Assembly (NCBI RefSeq): GCF_003334765.1
Contig: NZ_QOWT01000004.1
Length of the DNA: 64,000 nucleotides
Direction: 5' to 3' (one strand)
Origin: Escherichia coli
GTDB taxonomy: Bacteria > Pseudomonadota > Gammaproteobacteria > Enterobacterales > Enterobacteriaceae
In this document: piece by piece, positions 44,081 to 47,298 of the stretch
How the letters are laid out: each line of letters begins with the position of its first letter
How positions within the stretch are numbered: position 1 is the first letter of the stretch
Translations under genes and position numbers: made by a program
The notes under the pieces: generated by a model
Seen by the model: only the letters and a program-made list of their open reading frames with translations
What the model was told of the DNA's origin: nothing
The model's database searches: none

Positions 44081-45151
44081 TTATTTACCCCAGTTAAGGG
44101 CCGGGGTGTGAACCGGGGCGTCCCAGAGTGCCAGCGTTTCGTCATCAACTTTCAGTAAGGTGATTGAGAAACCGGTCATATCCAGTGAGGTGCAGTACGC
44201 GCCAATTAAATTACGTTCGATAGTCAATCCCGCTTGCTGGCAACGTGTGGTCAGGCGGTTATAGACGCCGTACAGCTCAGAAAGCGGAGTTGCGCCAAGA
44301 TTGTTAACCAGCGCAATCACCCGATCGCCAGACTGGAGCGGTTGTTTGGTTTGTTGTTCTTCCTGCCAACTGCCTTGTTGATAATCCCAGAAACGCAAAG
44401 TGCGATGGTATGAGCCATTTACCAGCAGGGTGTCGAACATTTCATCGACGGTTTGATCAAGGGAAGAGAAGGGGCGGCGGTCAATACCCGGCTCACCATG
44501 AATGCCGACGCCAAACTCCATCTCATTATCCGCCAGGGTAAAAGAAGGTTTGCCCGCGGCAGGAACGGTACAGGCACCGAGAGCGATACCTATTGAGTGG
44601 CCTTGATTATTCAGCTTACGCCCCAGTTCCGCACAGGCGTCCAGTGAGTCGCCACGCTCCGCCGCTGCGCCTACGAGTTTTTCAATTAATACGGTGTTGG
44701 CAACGCCGCGTCGCCCGGCAGTATAAAGACTGTCTTTTACCGCAACGTCGTCATCAATGACCACAGTGGTCACTTTTACGCCGCTATCGTGCAGTAACTC
44801 GGTCGCTGTTTCAAAGTTAAGAATATCGCCGGTGTAATTTTTGATAATCAACAGTACACCTTCGCCGCCATCAACTTGCATGGCGCATTCAAAGATTTTA
44901 TCGGGCGTCGGTGAGGTGAAAATTTCGCCCGGACAGGCCCCCGAAAGCATCCCCTGACCGATATAACCACAGTGCATCGGCTCGTGTCCGCTGCCGCCAC
45001 CCGACAGCAGGGCGACTTTTCCTTCAACAGGGGCATCAGCTCGGGTGACATACACCGGATCCTGATGCAGTGTCAGCGATGGATGCGCTTTCGCCAGTCC
45101 TGCCAGTTGTTCGTCCAGTACGTCTTGCACATCATTGATCAATTTTTTCAT
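44081..45151 (-). CDS. dhaK: dihydroxyacetone kinase substrate-binding subunit DhaK
   Basis: Start at MKKLINDV gives 356 aa; 10-bp gaps between dhaK, dhaL and dhaM. Confidence 0.9.
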   Translation of the reverse strand: MKKLINDVQDVLDEQLAGLAKAHPSLTLHQDPVYVTRADAPVEGKVALLSGGGSGHEPMHCGYIGQGMLSGACPGEIFTSPTPDKIFECAMQVDGGEGVLLIIKNYTGDILNFETATELLHDSGVKVTTVVIDDDVAVKDSLYTAGRRGVANTVLIEKLVGAAAERGDSLDACAELGRKLNNQGHSIGIALGACTVPAAGKPSFTLADNEMEFGVGIHGEPGIDRRPFSSLDQTVDEMFDTLLVNGSYHRTLRFWDYQQGSWQEEQQTKQPLQSGDRVIALVNNLGATPLSELYGVYNRLTTRCQQAGLTIERNLIGAYCTSLDMTGFSITLLKVDDETLALWDAPVHTPALNWGK

Positions 45152-45265
45152 TATTTTGCTCCAGCAATTACGGTAGGGCATGGATGATGTTCAACGACAC
45201 GGCGACCACTGACTGCCGATGAATCCATTGTGCATCAGGCAAGGGAAAAGAAAATTAGCCCAAAT

Positions 45266-45286
45266 TATGTTTCATAGTGAAACATA
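45266..45286. promoter_or_regulatory. candidate DhaR operator (palindrome) in the dhaK-dhaR intergenic region
   Basis: TATGTTTCA-tag-TGAAACATA with perfect 9-bp arms; a second imperfect GTTCCA-N3-TGAAAC site at 45299-45314. Confidence 0.45.
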
Positions 45287-45378
45287 TGCTTTAATGAATG
45301 TTCCATATTGAAACTTTTACGTGTATTAATACTTAAAATTGCGAGCCGGAACACCTTTTGTCATAAGGGATGCGGGAT

Positions 45379-47298
45379 ATGAGTGGCGCTTTTAACAACG
45401 ATGGTCGGGGCATATCTCCCTTAATTGCAACCTCCTGGGAGCGATGCAATAAGCTGATGAAACGGGAGACATGGAACGTACCACATCAGGCCCAGGGCGT
45501 GACATTTGCTTCTATTTATCGGCGTAAGAAAGCGATGCTGACGCTCGGGCAGGCTGCGCTGGAAGATGCCTGGGAATATATGGCACCGCGAGAGTGTGCG
45601 CTGTTTATCCTCGATGAAACCGCCTGCATTCTCAGCCGTAATGGCGATCCGCAAACCTTGCAGCAGCTAAGTGCACTGGGATTCAATGACGGCACGTATT
45701 GCGCCGAGGGAATTATTGGTACTTGTGCGCTATCGTTAGCGGCTATCTCTGGTCAGGCCGTGAAAACGATGGCCGATCAACATTTCAAACAGGTACTCTG
45801 GAACTGGGCCTTTTGTGCAACGCCGTTGTTTGACAGCAAGGGCCGATTGACGGGAACAATAGCGCTGGCGTGTCCGGTTGAGCAAACTACCGCAGCTGAT
45901 TTGCCGTTGACGTTGGCAATCGCCCGCGAGGTCGGAAATTTACTGCTGACGGACAGTTTGCTCGCTGAAACTAACCGTCATTTAAATCAACTTAATGCCC
46001 TGTTAGAAAGTATGGATGATGGCGTGATTAGCTGGGACGAGCAGGGTAATTTGCAATTTATTAATGCCCAGGCGGCGCGGGTCTTGCGCCTTGACGCGAC
46101 GGCAAGTCAGGGACGGGCAATCACTGAACTCTTAACGTTACCCGCCGTATTGCAACAAGCAATAAAACAGGCACATCCGCTCAAACACGTAGAAGCAACC
46201 TTTGAAAGCCAGCACCAGTTTATTGATGCGGTGATAACCCTTAAACCGATAATAGAAACGCAGGGAACCAGCTTTATTTTGTTGCTCCATCCTGTGGAAC
46301 AGATGCGGCAGTTGATGACCAGTCAATTAGGAAAAGTCAGCCATACCTTCGCTCATATGCCACAGGACGATCCGCAAACCCGCCGCTTGATTCATTTTGG
46401 TCGCCAGGCGGCGCGCAGTAGCTTTCCTGTCCTGCTTTGTGGAGAAGAGGGCGTGGGCAAGGCACTGCTAAGTCAGGCAATTCATAATGAAAGCGAGCGT
46501 GCTGCAGGTCCTTATATCGCCGTCAATTGTGAGTTATATGGTGATGCTGCGCTGGCGGAAGAATTTATTGGTGGCGATCGCACGGACAATGAAAATGGCC
46601 GTCTGAGTCGGCTGGAACTGGCACACGGCGGCACGCTGTTTCTTGAAAAGATTGAATATCTGGCGGTGGAGTTACAGTCTGCTTTGCTTCAGGTTATCAA
46701 GCAGGGGGTTATCACGCGACTGGATGCGCGGCGTTTAATACCAATTGATGTCAAAGTGATTGCAACAACGACCGCGGACCTCGCAATGCTGGTGGAACAA
46801 AATCGTTTTAGTCGCCAGCTGTATTACGCGCTGCATGCATTTGAAATTACCATCCCGCCTCTGCGTATGCGGCGTGGCAGCATTCCGGCGCTGGTGAATA
46901 ACAAATTACGCAGTCTTGAAAAACGCTTCTCTACGCGGCTGAAAATTGATGACGATGCCCTCGCTCGCCTGGTTTCTTGTGCATGGCCAGGCAACGATTT
47001 TGAACTTTACAGCGTCATCGAGAATCTTGCTCTGAGTAGTGATAACGGGCGCATTCGCGTCAGTGATTTGCCGGAACATCTGTTTACCGAGCAGGCGACA
47101 GATGATGTCAGCGCCACCCGCCTTTCCACCAGTCTGTCATTTGCGGAAGTTGAAAAAGAGGCAATTATTAACGCAGCCCAGGTCACAGGCGGTCGCATTC
47201 AGGAAATGTCGGCTTTACTTGGGATCGGCCGCACTACGCTGTGGCGGAAAATGAAGCAACATGGCATTGATGCAGGGCAGTTTAAGCGCCGGGTATGA
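45379..47298 (+). CDS. dhaR: sigma-70-dependent AAA+ transcriptional activator of the dha operon
   Basis: GAF/PAS sensor region, AAA+ domain and C-terminal Fis-type helix-turn-helix; 639 aa from MSGAFNN. Confidence 0.9.
   Translation: MSGAFNNDGRGISPLIATSWERCNKLMKRETWNVPHQAQGVTFASIYRRKKAMLTLGQAALEDAWEYMAPRECALFILDETACILSRNGDPQTLQQLSALGFNDGTYCAEGIIGTCALSLAAISGQAVKTMADQHFKQVLWNWAFCATPLFDSKGRLTGTIALACPVEQTTAADLPLTLAIAREVGNLLLTDSLLAETNRHLNQLNALLESMDDGVISWDEQGNLQFINAQAARVLRLDATASQGRAITELLTLPAVLQQAIKQAHPLKHVEATFESQHQFIDAVITLKPIIETQGTSFILLLHPVEQMRQLMTSQLGKVSHTFAHMPQDDPQTRRLIHFGRQAARSSFPVLLCGEEGVGKALLSQAIHNESERAAGPYIAVNCELYGDAALAEEFIGGDRTDNENGRLSRLELAHGGTLFLEKIEYLAVELQSALLQVIKQGVITRLDARRLIPIDVKVIATTTADLAMLVEQNRFSRQLYYALHAFEITIPPLRMRRGSIPALVNNKLRSLEKRFSTRLKIDDDALARLVSCAWPGNDFELYSVIENLALSSDNGRIRVSDLPEHLFTEQATDDVSATRLSTSLSFAEVEKEAIINAAQVTGGRIQEMSALLGIGRTTLWRKMKQHGIDAGQFKRRV

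What the first reader, a model, noticed from the sequence alone, without database searches (positions are those of the whole stretch)
45152..45378. Paired GTTTCA/TGAAAC dyads in the divergent dhaK-dhaR promoter region
A perfect palindrome TATGTTTCA-tag-TGAAACATA (45266-45286) and a second imperfect copy (45299-45314) lie 115-165 bp upstream of dhaK and 65-110 bp upstream of dhaR. This is consistent with enhancer-like binding sites for the AAA+ activator DhaR, which unusually acts with sigma-70 and is controlled by DhaK/DhaL.
Basis: partly seen in the sequence, partly recalled or inferred. Interest (0 to 1): 0.35.

Follow-up and report, generated by a model that had tools for sequence, protein, structure and literature searches.

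The report
DhaR operator pair, dhaK–dhaR spacer
The two GTTYCA-N3-TGRAAC palindromes between the E. coli dhaK and dhaR genes are real and are almost certainly the docking sites of the regulator DhaR, which is expected biology for a well-studied operon, not a surprise.

Summary
The window is E. coli. The 227-bp spacer 45152-45378 separates dhaK (-) from dhaR (+).

Three tests link them to DhaR:
- The same pair at the same spacing is kept in other Escherichia and in Citrobacter. It recurs at every dha promoter examined in Pantoea, Klebsiella (three pairs) and a Serratia-like contig.
- A matrix trained only on those foreign sites scores the two E. coli dyads 24.5 and 24.1 bits. The next best site in 64 kb scores 14.6.
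- A metagenome scan using only the paired-dyad DNA pattern returned 80 loci, 44 with a DhaR-type regulator and/or DhaK/DhaL/GldA within 3 kb.

A -10-like hexamer lies 43-45 nt from the promoter-proximal dyad in 8 of 9 enterobacterial dha promoters. Distant relatives have a near-consensus sigma-70 promoter at the matching position. I infer DhaR sites near -56 and -87 of dhaK, with dyad 2 over the -35 zone of a candidate dhaR promoter.

There is no sigma-54 promoter, and DhaR lacks GAFTGA. "Enhancer-like" therefore fits only the layout. This is known biology, and the primary paper could not be read. Interest is low.

The parts
45266..45286 (.). DhaR box 1: perfect palindrome TATGTTTCA-TAG-TGAAACATA (core 45269-45283, centre 45276). 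It is the dyad nearest dhaK.
   Evidence: Searches give the sequence. It scores 24.5 bits with a matrix trained on other genera. It is conserved in Escherichia and Citrobacter.
45297..45317 (.). DhaR box 2: AATGTTCCATATTGAAACTTT (core GTTCC-ATATT-GAAAC 45300-45314, centre 45307), 31 bp from box 1. It is the dyad nearest dhaR.
   Evidence: Searches give the sequence. It scores 24.1 bits. In other Escherichia clades and Citrobacter L006 it is the perfect palindrome GTTCCATAACGGAAC; L004/L005 have a 1-mismatch variant.
45245..45256 (-). Conserved T-tract (AATTTTCTTTTC on the dhaK strand) occupying the -35 zone of the inferred DhaR-dependent dhaK promoter.
   Evidence: 79% of its columns are invariant in the Escherichia/Citrobacter alignment. 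Similar T-tracts follow the proximal dyad at the Pantoea and Klebsiella dhaK, gldA/dhaD and dhaB promoters. Its role is inferred.
45227..45232 (-). Inferred -10 hexamer CACAAT of the DhaR-dependent dhaK promoter. It implies a start site near 45220, box 1 at about -56 and box 2 at about -87.
   Evidence: It is invariant in 7 Escherichia/Citrobacter spacers. A -10-like hexamer sits 43-45 nt from the proximal dyad centre in 8 of 9 dha promoter contexts. The start site was not mapped here.
45167..45194 (-). Alternative, in-silico dhaK promoter TTGAAC-16-CGTAAT (-35 at 45189-45194, -10 at 45167-45172). It may be a basal promoter.
   Evidence: It is listed for this spacer by Shimada et al. 2014, which found RpoD holoenzyme binding to the spacer by genomic SELEX (PMC3946193). 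Coordinates were checked.
45334..45339 (+). Candidate -10 (TAAAAT) of the dhaR promoter, followed by the conserved TGCGAG. It would put box 2 at about -39, over the -35 zone.
   Evidence: A (T/G/C)AAAAT or TAAATT element followed by G(C/A)GA is kept in Escherichia, Citrobacter, Klebsiella and Pantoea. This is an inference. Shimada 2014 proposes TTGCGA-17-CATAAG (45339-45367) instead.
44081..45151 (-). dhaK coding sequence (356 aa), the first gene of dhaKLM.
45379..47298 (+). dhaR coding sequence (639 aa): GAF-PAS sensor, a degenerate AAA+ domain (no GAFTGA, Walker B GGTLFLEK) and a C-terminal HTH with ...GRTTLWRKMKQHG...
   Evidence: Precomputed Pfam domains on E. coli DhaR fragments are.

Best explanation
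The two dyads are the operator of DhaR. I propose that each TGTTYCA-N3-TGRAACA dyad binds one dimer through the C-terminal Fis-type helix-turn-helix. With centres 31 bp (three helical turns) apart, both dimers sit on the same face of the DNA.

Bound at about -56 (box 1) and -87 (box 2), DhaR helps sigma-70 RNA polymerase use a weak dhaK promoter with -10 CACAAT and a T-rich -35 zone. Whether bound DhaR activates depends on its sensor domain. DhaK holds it inactive, and DhaL-ADP, formed when dihydroxyacetone is present, switches it on.

The same occupancy of box 2 covers the -35 zone of the divergent dhaR promoter, which would account for the reported autorepression.

Shown here: the sites, their conservation, and their tight association with DhaR and dha genes. 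Taken from literature or memory: sigma-70 dependence, DhaK/DhaL control, autorepression. Inferred: start sites, exact positions, the dimer-per-dyad stoichiometry and the contact with polymerase.
For: 1. The pair is kept with the same 31-bp spacing in four other Escherichia lineages and three Citrobacter genomes, although DhaR is only 71-73% identical in Citrobacter.
2. In Pantoea ananatis, two pairs lie in the dhaK-gldA spacer, one facing each operon. In Klebsiella pneumoniae, three pairs lie in the dhaK-dhaD and dhaT/orfY-dhaB spacers. A Serratia-like contig has one pair upstream of gldA-dhaKLM. In the Klebsiella locus (13.6 kb) and the 7.9-kb Pantoea locus only one other site comes within one mismatch, a lone hit in Pantoea gldA; the Serratia-like locus has two lone 1-mismatch hits outside its spacers. 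Klebsiella DhaR is reported to regulate dhaT and dhaB (PMC5890353).
3. A matrix trained only on those foreign sites picks the two E. coli dyads from 64 kb, at 24.5 and 24.1 bits against 14.6 for the next site.
4. Reverse test: a metagenome scan with the paired-dyad pattern alone gave 80 loci. Of these, 44 have a DhaR-type regulator and/or DhaK/DhaL/GldA within 3 kb. Most of the rest are contig ends or unrelated 31-nt direct repeats.
5. Geometry: a -10-like hexamer lies 43-45 nt from the proximal dyad centre in 8 of 9 enterobacterial dha promoters (binomial 4e-9, or 3e-4 if orthologous promoters are collapsed). In distant DhaR relatives (28-42% identity), a near-consensus TTGACA-16/17-TAnAAT promoter starts 24-25 nt from that centre in 16 of 24 loci.
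6. The recognition helix GR(T/S)TLWRK is conserved in all these regulators. Sigma-54 activators that share the peptide RTTLWRKMKQHG carry the same dyads upstream of a sigma-54-type -24/-12 promoter, canonical in L016 and one base off in L019.
7. Another factor's predicted site in this spacer, YgfI/DhfA, lies elsewhere at 45221-45236 (PMC9068703 Table S1).
Against: - No direct binding evidence was obtained or could be read here. The primary study (Bachler et al. 2005, EMBO J 24:283) is not in the held library. No open-access paper in the library describes a DhaR site.
- The dhaK start site is not mapped in the data I could reach. One genome-wide start-site list reports only a weak start inside dhaR, with a 318-nt leader and 6 reads.
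- An alternative in-silico promoter, TTGAAC-16-CGTAAT, would put the dyads at about -116 and -147.
- The simple sigma-70 scan finds no canonical promoter in the spacer.
- The autorepression geometry rests on an unverified -10. One RNA-seq study reports dhaR going up, not down, on dihydroxyacetone (PMC6643234).
- Within the Escherichia/Citrobacter alignment the dyads are conserved (60-67% invariant columns) but are not the most conserved blocks of the spacer.
Confidence: 0.88

Rival explanations
1. The protein is the same but the mechanism differs. DhaR bound at the dyads acts as a remote, enhancer-type upstream activating sequence, at about -116 and -147 from the promoter TTGAAC-16-CGTAAT next to the dhaK start codon, and reaches polymerase by DNA looping or bending.
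For: TTGAAC-16-CGTAAT is the best sigma-70 match in the spacer. It is listed for dhaK in a spacer that binds RpoD holoenzyme in vitro (PMC3946193). The block containing TTGAAC is well conserved in Escherichia and Citrobacter. Two dyads about 32 bp apart at roughly -110 and -140 would mirror the NtrC enhancer at glnAp2 (my own knowledge). An A/T tract that could bend DNA lies between the dyads and this promoter.
Against: - That promoter is not conserved in Pantoea or Klebsiella, where an insertion of about 30 nt separates the corresponding segments. The -10-like hexamer 43-45 nt from the proximal dyad is conserved in 8 of 9 contexts.
- Distant DhaR loci place a near-consensus promoter directly after the pair.
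- A start about 7 nt after CGTAAT would leave a leader of roughly 9 nt and cut off the GGAG ribosome-binding site (sequence).
- DhaR lacks GAFTGA and the Walker B 'DE', so ATP-driven remodelling from a distance is unlikely.
Confidence: 0.2
2. The dyads are the binding sites of a different regulator, such as YgfI/DhfA, NtrC, CRP or Mlc, and DhaR binds elsewhere in the spacer.
For: ChIP-exo places YgfI/DhfA upstream of dhaKLM (PMC9068703). An NtrC genomic-SELEX peak falls in this spacer (PMC8743547). The dyads share the 7-3-7 layout of NtrC sites (my own knowledge of the NtrC consensus).
Against: - The predicted YgfI site is GATGCACAATGGATTC at 45221-45236, not the dyads.
- The dyads follow DhaR-type regulators and dha genes into distant bacteria, where the only common linked regulator is the DhaR homologue.
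- The dyads also occur at dhaB/dhaT in Klebsiella, a DhaR-regulated pair.
- The dyads do not match the CRP or TyrR consensus by eye (inspection of the sequence; not scored).
Confidence: 0.04
3. The palindromes are chance features of an AT-rich spacer, or act as a DNA or RNA hairpin (cruciform or terminator), not as protein sites.
For: The spacer is 40% G+C. The 64-kb window holds about 11 other distinct perfect 9+9 inverted repeats, several resembling terminator stems.
Against: - The chance probability for this spacer is 0.8% for the first dyad alone.
- The second copy, the fixed 31-32 bp spacing and conservation across genera and phyla are not explained by chance.
- Half-sites vary independently. 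GTTCC paired with GAAAC occurs alongside GTTTC/GAAAC and GTTCC/GGAAC, which fits protein recognition and not stem pairing.
- No T-run terminator and no Rfam match were found.
Confidence: 0.01

Closest known systems
E. coli DhaR / dhaKLM-dhaR control region (Bachler, Schneider, Bahler, Lustig & Erni 2005, EMBO J 24:283)
   Same: This is the same locus at 100% identity. DhaR is the described sigma-70-dependent activator of dhaKLM, controlled by DhaK and DhaL. From my memory of the abstract, it also autorepresses dhaR.
   Different: Nothing is demonstrably different. I could not read the paper, so I cannot say whether its binding assays resolve these two dyads. The positions of about -56 and -87 and the cross-genus motif are my inferences.
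Klebsiella / Citrobacter dha regulon controlled by DhaR
   Same: The same dyad motif in the same paired layout stands in front of dhaK, dhaD and between dhaT/orfY and dhaB. DhaR is reported to regulate dhaT and dhaB (PMC5890353).
   Different: There dhaR is the second gene of a dhaD-dhaR operon and the regulon has three pairs. E. coli has one pair, shared by dhaK and a divergent dhaR.
NtrC enhancer at glnAp2 (two dyad sites about three helical turns apart; consensus TGCACCA-N3-TGGTGCA)
   Same: Both have a 7-3-7 dyad bound by a Fis-type HTH of a bEBP-family protein, with two sites about 31-32 bp apart on one helical face (the NtrC facts are from my own knowledge).
   Different: NtrC acts on a sigma-54 -24/-12 promoter from beyond -100, using ATP hydrolysis and GAFTGA. 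Here there is no sigma-54 promoter, no GAFTGA, a degenerate Walker B, and the sites are probably at -56 and -87.
TyrR and TyrR boxes (a sigma-70-dependent bEBP homologue in E. coli)
   Same: TyrR is a bEBP-derived regulator that lost the sigma-54 interaction and activates or represses sigma-70 promoters from dyad boxes near the promoter (PMC3162934).
   Different: The box sequence differs: TGTAAA-N6-TTTACA (my own knowledge) against TGTTYCA-N3-TGRAACA. The effectors also differ, being amino acids for TyrR and protein partners (DhaK, DhaL) for DhaR.

Membership tests
DhaR operator of the dha control region | Lies in the spacer between dhaK(LM) and dhaR | tested here: met
   The spacer is 45152-45378, between dhaK (ATG 45151, - strand) and dhaR (ATG 45379). 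It is 100% identical to annotated E. coli genomes.
DhaR operator of the dha control region | Dyad symmetry suited to a dimeric Fis-type helix-turn-helix | tested here: met
   HTH_8 (PF02954) is recorded on DhaR. The recognition helix GRTTLWRK is conserved.
DhaR operator of the dha control region | Conserved in orthologous spacers | tested here: met
   Both dyads and their 31-bp spacing are kept in 4 Escherichia and 3 Citrobacter loci.
DhaR operator of the dha control region | The same motif occurs at other promoters of the DhaR regulon and travels with dhaR and dha genes | tested here: met
   Pairs occur in Pantoea (2), Klebsiella (3) and a Serratia-like contig (1). Of 80 pattern-only metagenome loci, 44 carry DhaR-type and/or DhaK/L/GldA genes within 3 kb.
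DhaR operator of the dha control region | Physically bound by DhaR (gel shift, footprint or ChIP) | not testable with these tools
   This needs an experiment or the primary paper, which is not held.
Sigma-54 enhancer (bEBP upstream activating sequence) | Two or more dyad sites phased on one helical face | tested here: met
   The start-to-start spacing is 31-32 bp in all 9 enterobacterial pairs.
Sigma-54 enhancer (bEBP upstream activating sequence) | A -24/-12 (GG-N10-GC) promoter downstream | tested here: not met
   The only spacer match to TGGCAC-N5-TTGCW has 3 mismatches and lacks the -12 GC. No GG-N10-GC was found after the pairs in 11 of 12 distant DhaR loci.
Sigma-54 enhancer (bEBP upstream activating sequence) | Activator carries GAFTGA and an intact Walker B (DE) | tested here: not met
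   E. coli and Pantoea DhaR have no GAFTGA, and their Walker B reads GGTLFLEK. The 12 distant DhaR-type regulators also lack GAFTGA. This agrees with PMC3162934.
Sigma-54 enhancer (bEBP upstream activating sequence) | Sites 80-150 bp or more upstream of the start site | tested here: inconclusive
   The start site was not mapped. Comparative geometry gives about -56 and -87. The alternative promoter would give about -116 and -147.
TyrR-type regulation (sigma-70-dependent bEBP homologue) | TyrR box TGTAAA-N6-TTTACA | not tested
   Compared by eye only, with the TyrR box taken from my own knowledge: the motif derived here is TGTTYCA-N3-TGRAACA, which has a different half-site and spacing. No scan with the TyrR consensus was run. 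This is a functional analogy, not membership.

The most novel reading that the evidence does not exclude
The paired DhaR box is not just an E. coli operator. It may be an ancient, portable module that defines a whole GAFTGA-less, sigma-70-dependent offshoot of the enhancer-binding proteins.

The same two dyads 31-32 bp apart stand at a fixed distance in front of a sigma-70 promoter, with the proximal centre near -56 to -60. This holds from Enterobacterales to distant bacteria whose DhaR is only about 30% identical, in the arrangement dhaR-pair-glpF-dhaK-dhaL.

The same DNA code is still used by genuine sigma-54 activators that share the recognition helix RTTLWRKMKQHG. On this reading DhaR kept the enhancer's DNA-binding grammar while switching sigma factor. 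The divergent, autorepressed dhaR of E. coli would be a derived layout.
Probability: 0.55. Interest if true: 0.35.

Novelty: already known. Interest (0 to 1): 0.2.

Why it matters
For E. coli this is housekeeping knowledge. It pins the operator of a known regulator at its known target and gives coordinates for annotation.

The added value is modest but real:
- a consensus (TGTTYCA-N3-TGRAACA, in pairs 31-32 bp apart) that predicts DhaR-controlled promoters in other bacteria, including the industrially used Klebsiella 1,3-propanediol regulon;
- a testable promoter geometry, with sites near -56 and -87, for how an enhancer-binding-protein relative works with sigma-70.

Tried and rejected
- **Primary literature.** Bachler 2005 and Shi 2014 were tried by DOI, PMC id and PubMed id and are not held. 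Full-text searches for the dyad sequence and for 'DhaR binding/box/operator' found nothing relevant. Several broader searches returned mostly unrelated papers.
- **K-12 RefSeq record.** It carries no binding-site features here.
- **Start-site data.** Thomason 2015 is not held. Kim 2012 lists only a weak start inside dhaR and no Klebsiella dha entries in the stored part.
- **Consensus scan.** It found no canonical sigma-70 promoter and no terminator in the spacer.
- **Sigma-54 promoter.** Rejected.
- **Structured RNA.** No Rfam match.
- **Word-indexed protein search.** It returned mostly fragments. Three of the contigs followed from it lacked a visible dha promoter (L034, L035, L037). L009 ends before its dhaK promoter.
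- **Query error.** My first GldA query was one base out of frame and was corrected.
- **By-eye comparisons.** CRP, FNR and TyrR consensus matches to the dyads were considered by eye and rejected.

Full report
**What is there.** The window is E. coli. The stretch 45100-45430 is 100% identical to thousands of complete E. coli genomes, which annotate the flanking genes as dhaK and dhaR.
- dhaK runs on the minus strand with its ATG at 45151. The ORF lister starts it at an upstream in-frame ATG at 45181, which gives a 366-aa form.
- dhaR starts at 45379.
- It contains the perfect palindrome TATGTTTCA-TAG-TGAAACATA at 45266-45286 and a second copy, TGTTCCATATTGAAAC, at 45299-45314. The two 15-nt cores start 31 bp apart.

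**Is it more than chance?**
- A perfect 9+9 inverted repeat with a short loop appears in 0.8% of Markov simulations of this spacer.
- In the whole 64-kb window, the only exact match and the only one-mismatch match to GTTTCA-N3-TGAAAC are these two sites.

The stronger argument comes from other genomes.

**Orthologous spacers.** A scan of one genome per species with the DhaR protein gave four further Escherichia lineages, three Citrobacter, Pantoea ananatis and one more distant relative.
- In all Escherichia and Citrobacter spacers both dyads are present with the same 31-bp spacing.
- Outside E. coli proper, box 2 is GTTCCATAACGGAAC, a perfect palindrome in the other Escherichia clades and Citrobacter L006 and one mismatch off in L004 and L005. 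The half-site is therefore GTTYC/GRAAC.

**Other dha promoters.** In Pantoea, dhaR is not next to dhaK. The cluster is dhaK <- 588 bp -> gldA-dhaR, and this spacer holds two pairs of dyads, each pair about 145-195 bp from the start codon it faces.

In a Klebsiella pneumoniae dha regulon there are three pairs: two in the dhaK-dhaD spacer and one in the dhaT/orfY-dhaB spacer. No other site within one mismatch exists in that 13.6-kb locus. A Serratia-like contig has one pair in front of gldA-dhaKLM. Klebsiella DhaR is reported to regulate dhaT and dhaB (PMC5890353).

A weight matrix trained only on these twelve foreign dyads scores the two E. coli sites 24.5 and 24.1 bits. The next best position in 64 kb scores 14.6.

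**Reverse test.** I scanned the metagenome collection with the DNA pattern alone: TGTTYC-N5-GRAAC-N16/17-GTTYC-N5-GRAAC. It returned more than 120 stretches, of which 80 were fetched.
- 44 of the 80 have a DhaR-type regulator and/or DhaK, DhaL or GldA within 3 kb of the pair.
- Three have another AAA+ activator, and three are tandem arrays.
- 30 have nothing. Most of these are contig ends or direct 31-nt repeats that lack the CA-N3-TG inner bases.

Many positives are far from E. coli. Their regulator is only 28-42% identical, yet it aligns over its full length, lacks GAFTGA, and sits in the order dhaR - pair - glpF-like channel - dhaK - dhaL. The motif therefore travels with DhaR and its targets, not with any other factor.

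**Link to the DNA-binding helix.** The recognition helix GR(T/S)TLWRK is conserved in all these regulators. Unrelated sigma-54 activators had been pulled in by chance through the peptide WRKMKQHG.
- Two of them (L016, L019) are RTTLWRKMKQHG proteins with intact GAFTGA.
- They carry two dyads of the same kind, scoring 18-23 bits, just downstream of their own gene and upstream of a sigma-54-type promoter.
- In L016 that promoter is GGCACATATTTTGC; in L019 the match is weaker, with GA in place of the -12 GC.

**Geometry.** Oriented toward the target gene, a -10-like hexamer (A2, T6, at least 4 of 6 matches to TATAAT) lies 43-45 nt from the centre of the proximal dyad in 8 of 9 enterobacterial dha promoters.
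- The hexamers are CACAAT in E. coli and Citrobacter, then GAGAAT, CAGAAT, TAAAGT, TACAGT, TAAAGT and CATAGT.
- The background rate gives a binomial P of 4e-9, or 3e-4 if orthologous promoters are counted once.
- In E. coli the hexamer is 45232->45227 and is invariant across Escherichia and Citrobacter.
- A T-rich tract fills the -35 zone in the ten Escherichia, Citrobacter, Pantoea and Klebsiella promoters for dhaK, gldA/dhaD and dhaB, but not in the Klebsiella dhaT-facing or Serratia-like contexts.
- In the distant clade, a near-consensus sigma-70 promoter follows the pair. Its -35 begins 24-25 nt and its -10 begins 46-48 nt from the proximal centre in 16 of 24 loci.

From this I infer a DhaR-dependent dhaK start near 45220, box 1 at about -56 and box 2 at about -87. 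This is an inference, because no usable start-site data were available. The alternative in-silico promoter TTGAAC-16-CGTAAT (PMC3946193) may be a basal promoter. It is not conserved in Pantoea or Klebsiella, and it would leave almost no leader.

**The dhaR side.** A -10-like (T/G/C)AAAAT or TAAATT followed by G(C/A)GA is conserved 27-28 nt beyond box 2 in Escherichia, Citrobacter, Klebsiella and Pantoea. If it is the dhaR promoter, box 2 is centred near -39 and would block the -35 zone. That fits the autorepression I recall from the abstract of Bachler 2005. This part is the weakest. Shimada 2014 lists a different candidate, and one RNA-seq study saw dhaR rise on dihydroxyacetone.

**How 'enhancer-like' it is.** The layout of two 7-3-7 dyads three turns apart is that of an NtrC-type enhancer. 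The rest is not.
- The spacer has no -24/-12 promoter.
- DhaR lacks GAFTGA, and its Walker B reads EK where active relatives have DE (PMC3162934).
- The sites are probably promoter-proximal.

The closest functional analogue is TyrR.

**Other factors.** The predicted YgfI/DhfA site (PMC9068703 Table S1) maps to 45221-45236, not to the dyads. An NtrC genomic-SELEX peak lies in this spacer and was not pursued. No Rfam family and no terminator match were found.

**Verdict.** The feature is the operator of a known regulator at its known target in the best-studied bacterium, so I rate it already known and of low interest.

The caveat is that I could not read the primary paper to see how finely the site was mapped. 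The consensus, the regulon-wide and cross-phylum conservation and the promoter geometry are useful by-products.

Noticed in passing
L016:3008-3186; L019:3907-4085; also L012:4730, L014:5140: Genuine sigma-54 activators (GAFTGA intact) from uncultured Deltaproteobacteria share DhaR's recognition-helix peptide RTTLWRKMKQHG. They carry the same TGTTYCA-N3-TGRAACA dyads (18-23 bits), two per locus about 80 bp apart, between their own gene and a sigma-54-type promoter followed by a UspA-like gene. The promoter is GGCACATATTTTGC in L016; the L019 match is weaker, with GA in place of the -12 GC.
   Followed up: partly
L038, L055, L059, L068, L074, L079, L083, L093, L102, L105, L109, L112 (metagenome loci): A distant DhaR clade (28-42% identity, no GAFTGA) has the order dhaR - paired dyads - near-consensus sigma-70 promoter - glpF-like channel - dhaK - dhaL. 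A promoter that strong should not need an activator, so DhaR may act differently there, for example as a repressor or anti-repressor.
   Followed up: partly
window 45221-45236: The site predicted for the LysR-type regulator YgfI/DhfA (GATGCACAATGGATTC, PMC9068703 Table S1) overlaps the -10 hexamer CACAAT that I infer for the DhaR-dependent dhaK promoter. That is an odd place for a proposed activator.
   Followed up: no
window 45189-45220: The G+C-rich block GTTCAACGACACGGCGACCACTGACTGCCGAT is among the best conserved parts of the spacer in Escherichia and Citrobacter (66% invariant columns). It would lie in the dhaK leader if the start is near 45220. Its role is unknown, and there is no Rfam match.
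   Followed up: partly
window 45309-45339 versus L002, L003, L007 2931-2961: E. coli proper and L001 differ from the other Escherichia clades in a segment of about 25 bp. It runs from the right half of box 2 (TGAAAC versus CGGAAC) to the candidate dhaR -10. In E. coli it creates an AT-rich TGTATTAAT (extended -10-like) at 45322-45330. This may be lineage-specific rewiring of the dhaR promoter.
   Followed up: no
window about 45247 (spacer); PMC8743547: An NtrC genomic-SELEX peak is reported in the dhaK/dhaR spacer (old coordinate 1,250,156). NtrC sites have the same 7-3-7 layout (TG...CA-N3-TG...CA), so weak cross-binding to the DhaR boxes is conceivable.
   Followed up: no
window about 45469 (inside dhaR, minus strand): Kim et al. 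2012 list a weak start site assigned to dhaK with a 318-nt leader (6 reads). It would be antisense to the 5' end of dhaR.
   Followed up: no
L032:6001-7578: In this Klebsiella pneumoniae assembly dhaR is called as only 525 aa, with a weak AAA+ match. This suggests an internal deletion or frameshift in that isolate.
   Followed up: no
L046, L058, L065, L070, L077/L095, L097, L051/L117 (metagenome loci): Several pattern hits without dha genes are direct repeats or tandem arrays of 31-32-nt units that each contain a GTTYC-N5-GRAAC palindrome. L070 alone has 14 overlapping matches. They are unrelated repeat families of unknown nature.
   Followed up: no
window 45370-45378 and 45152-45181: Both genes have alternative upstream in-frame ATGs: dhaR at 45370 (642 aa) and dhaK at 45181 (366 aa, an older annotation). 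The mechanical ORF list uses these, so the true spacer is longer than the ORF list implies.
   Followed up: yes
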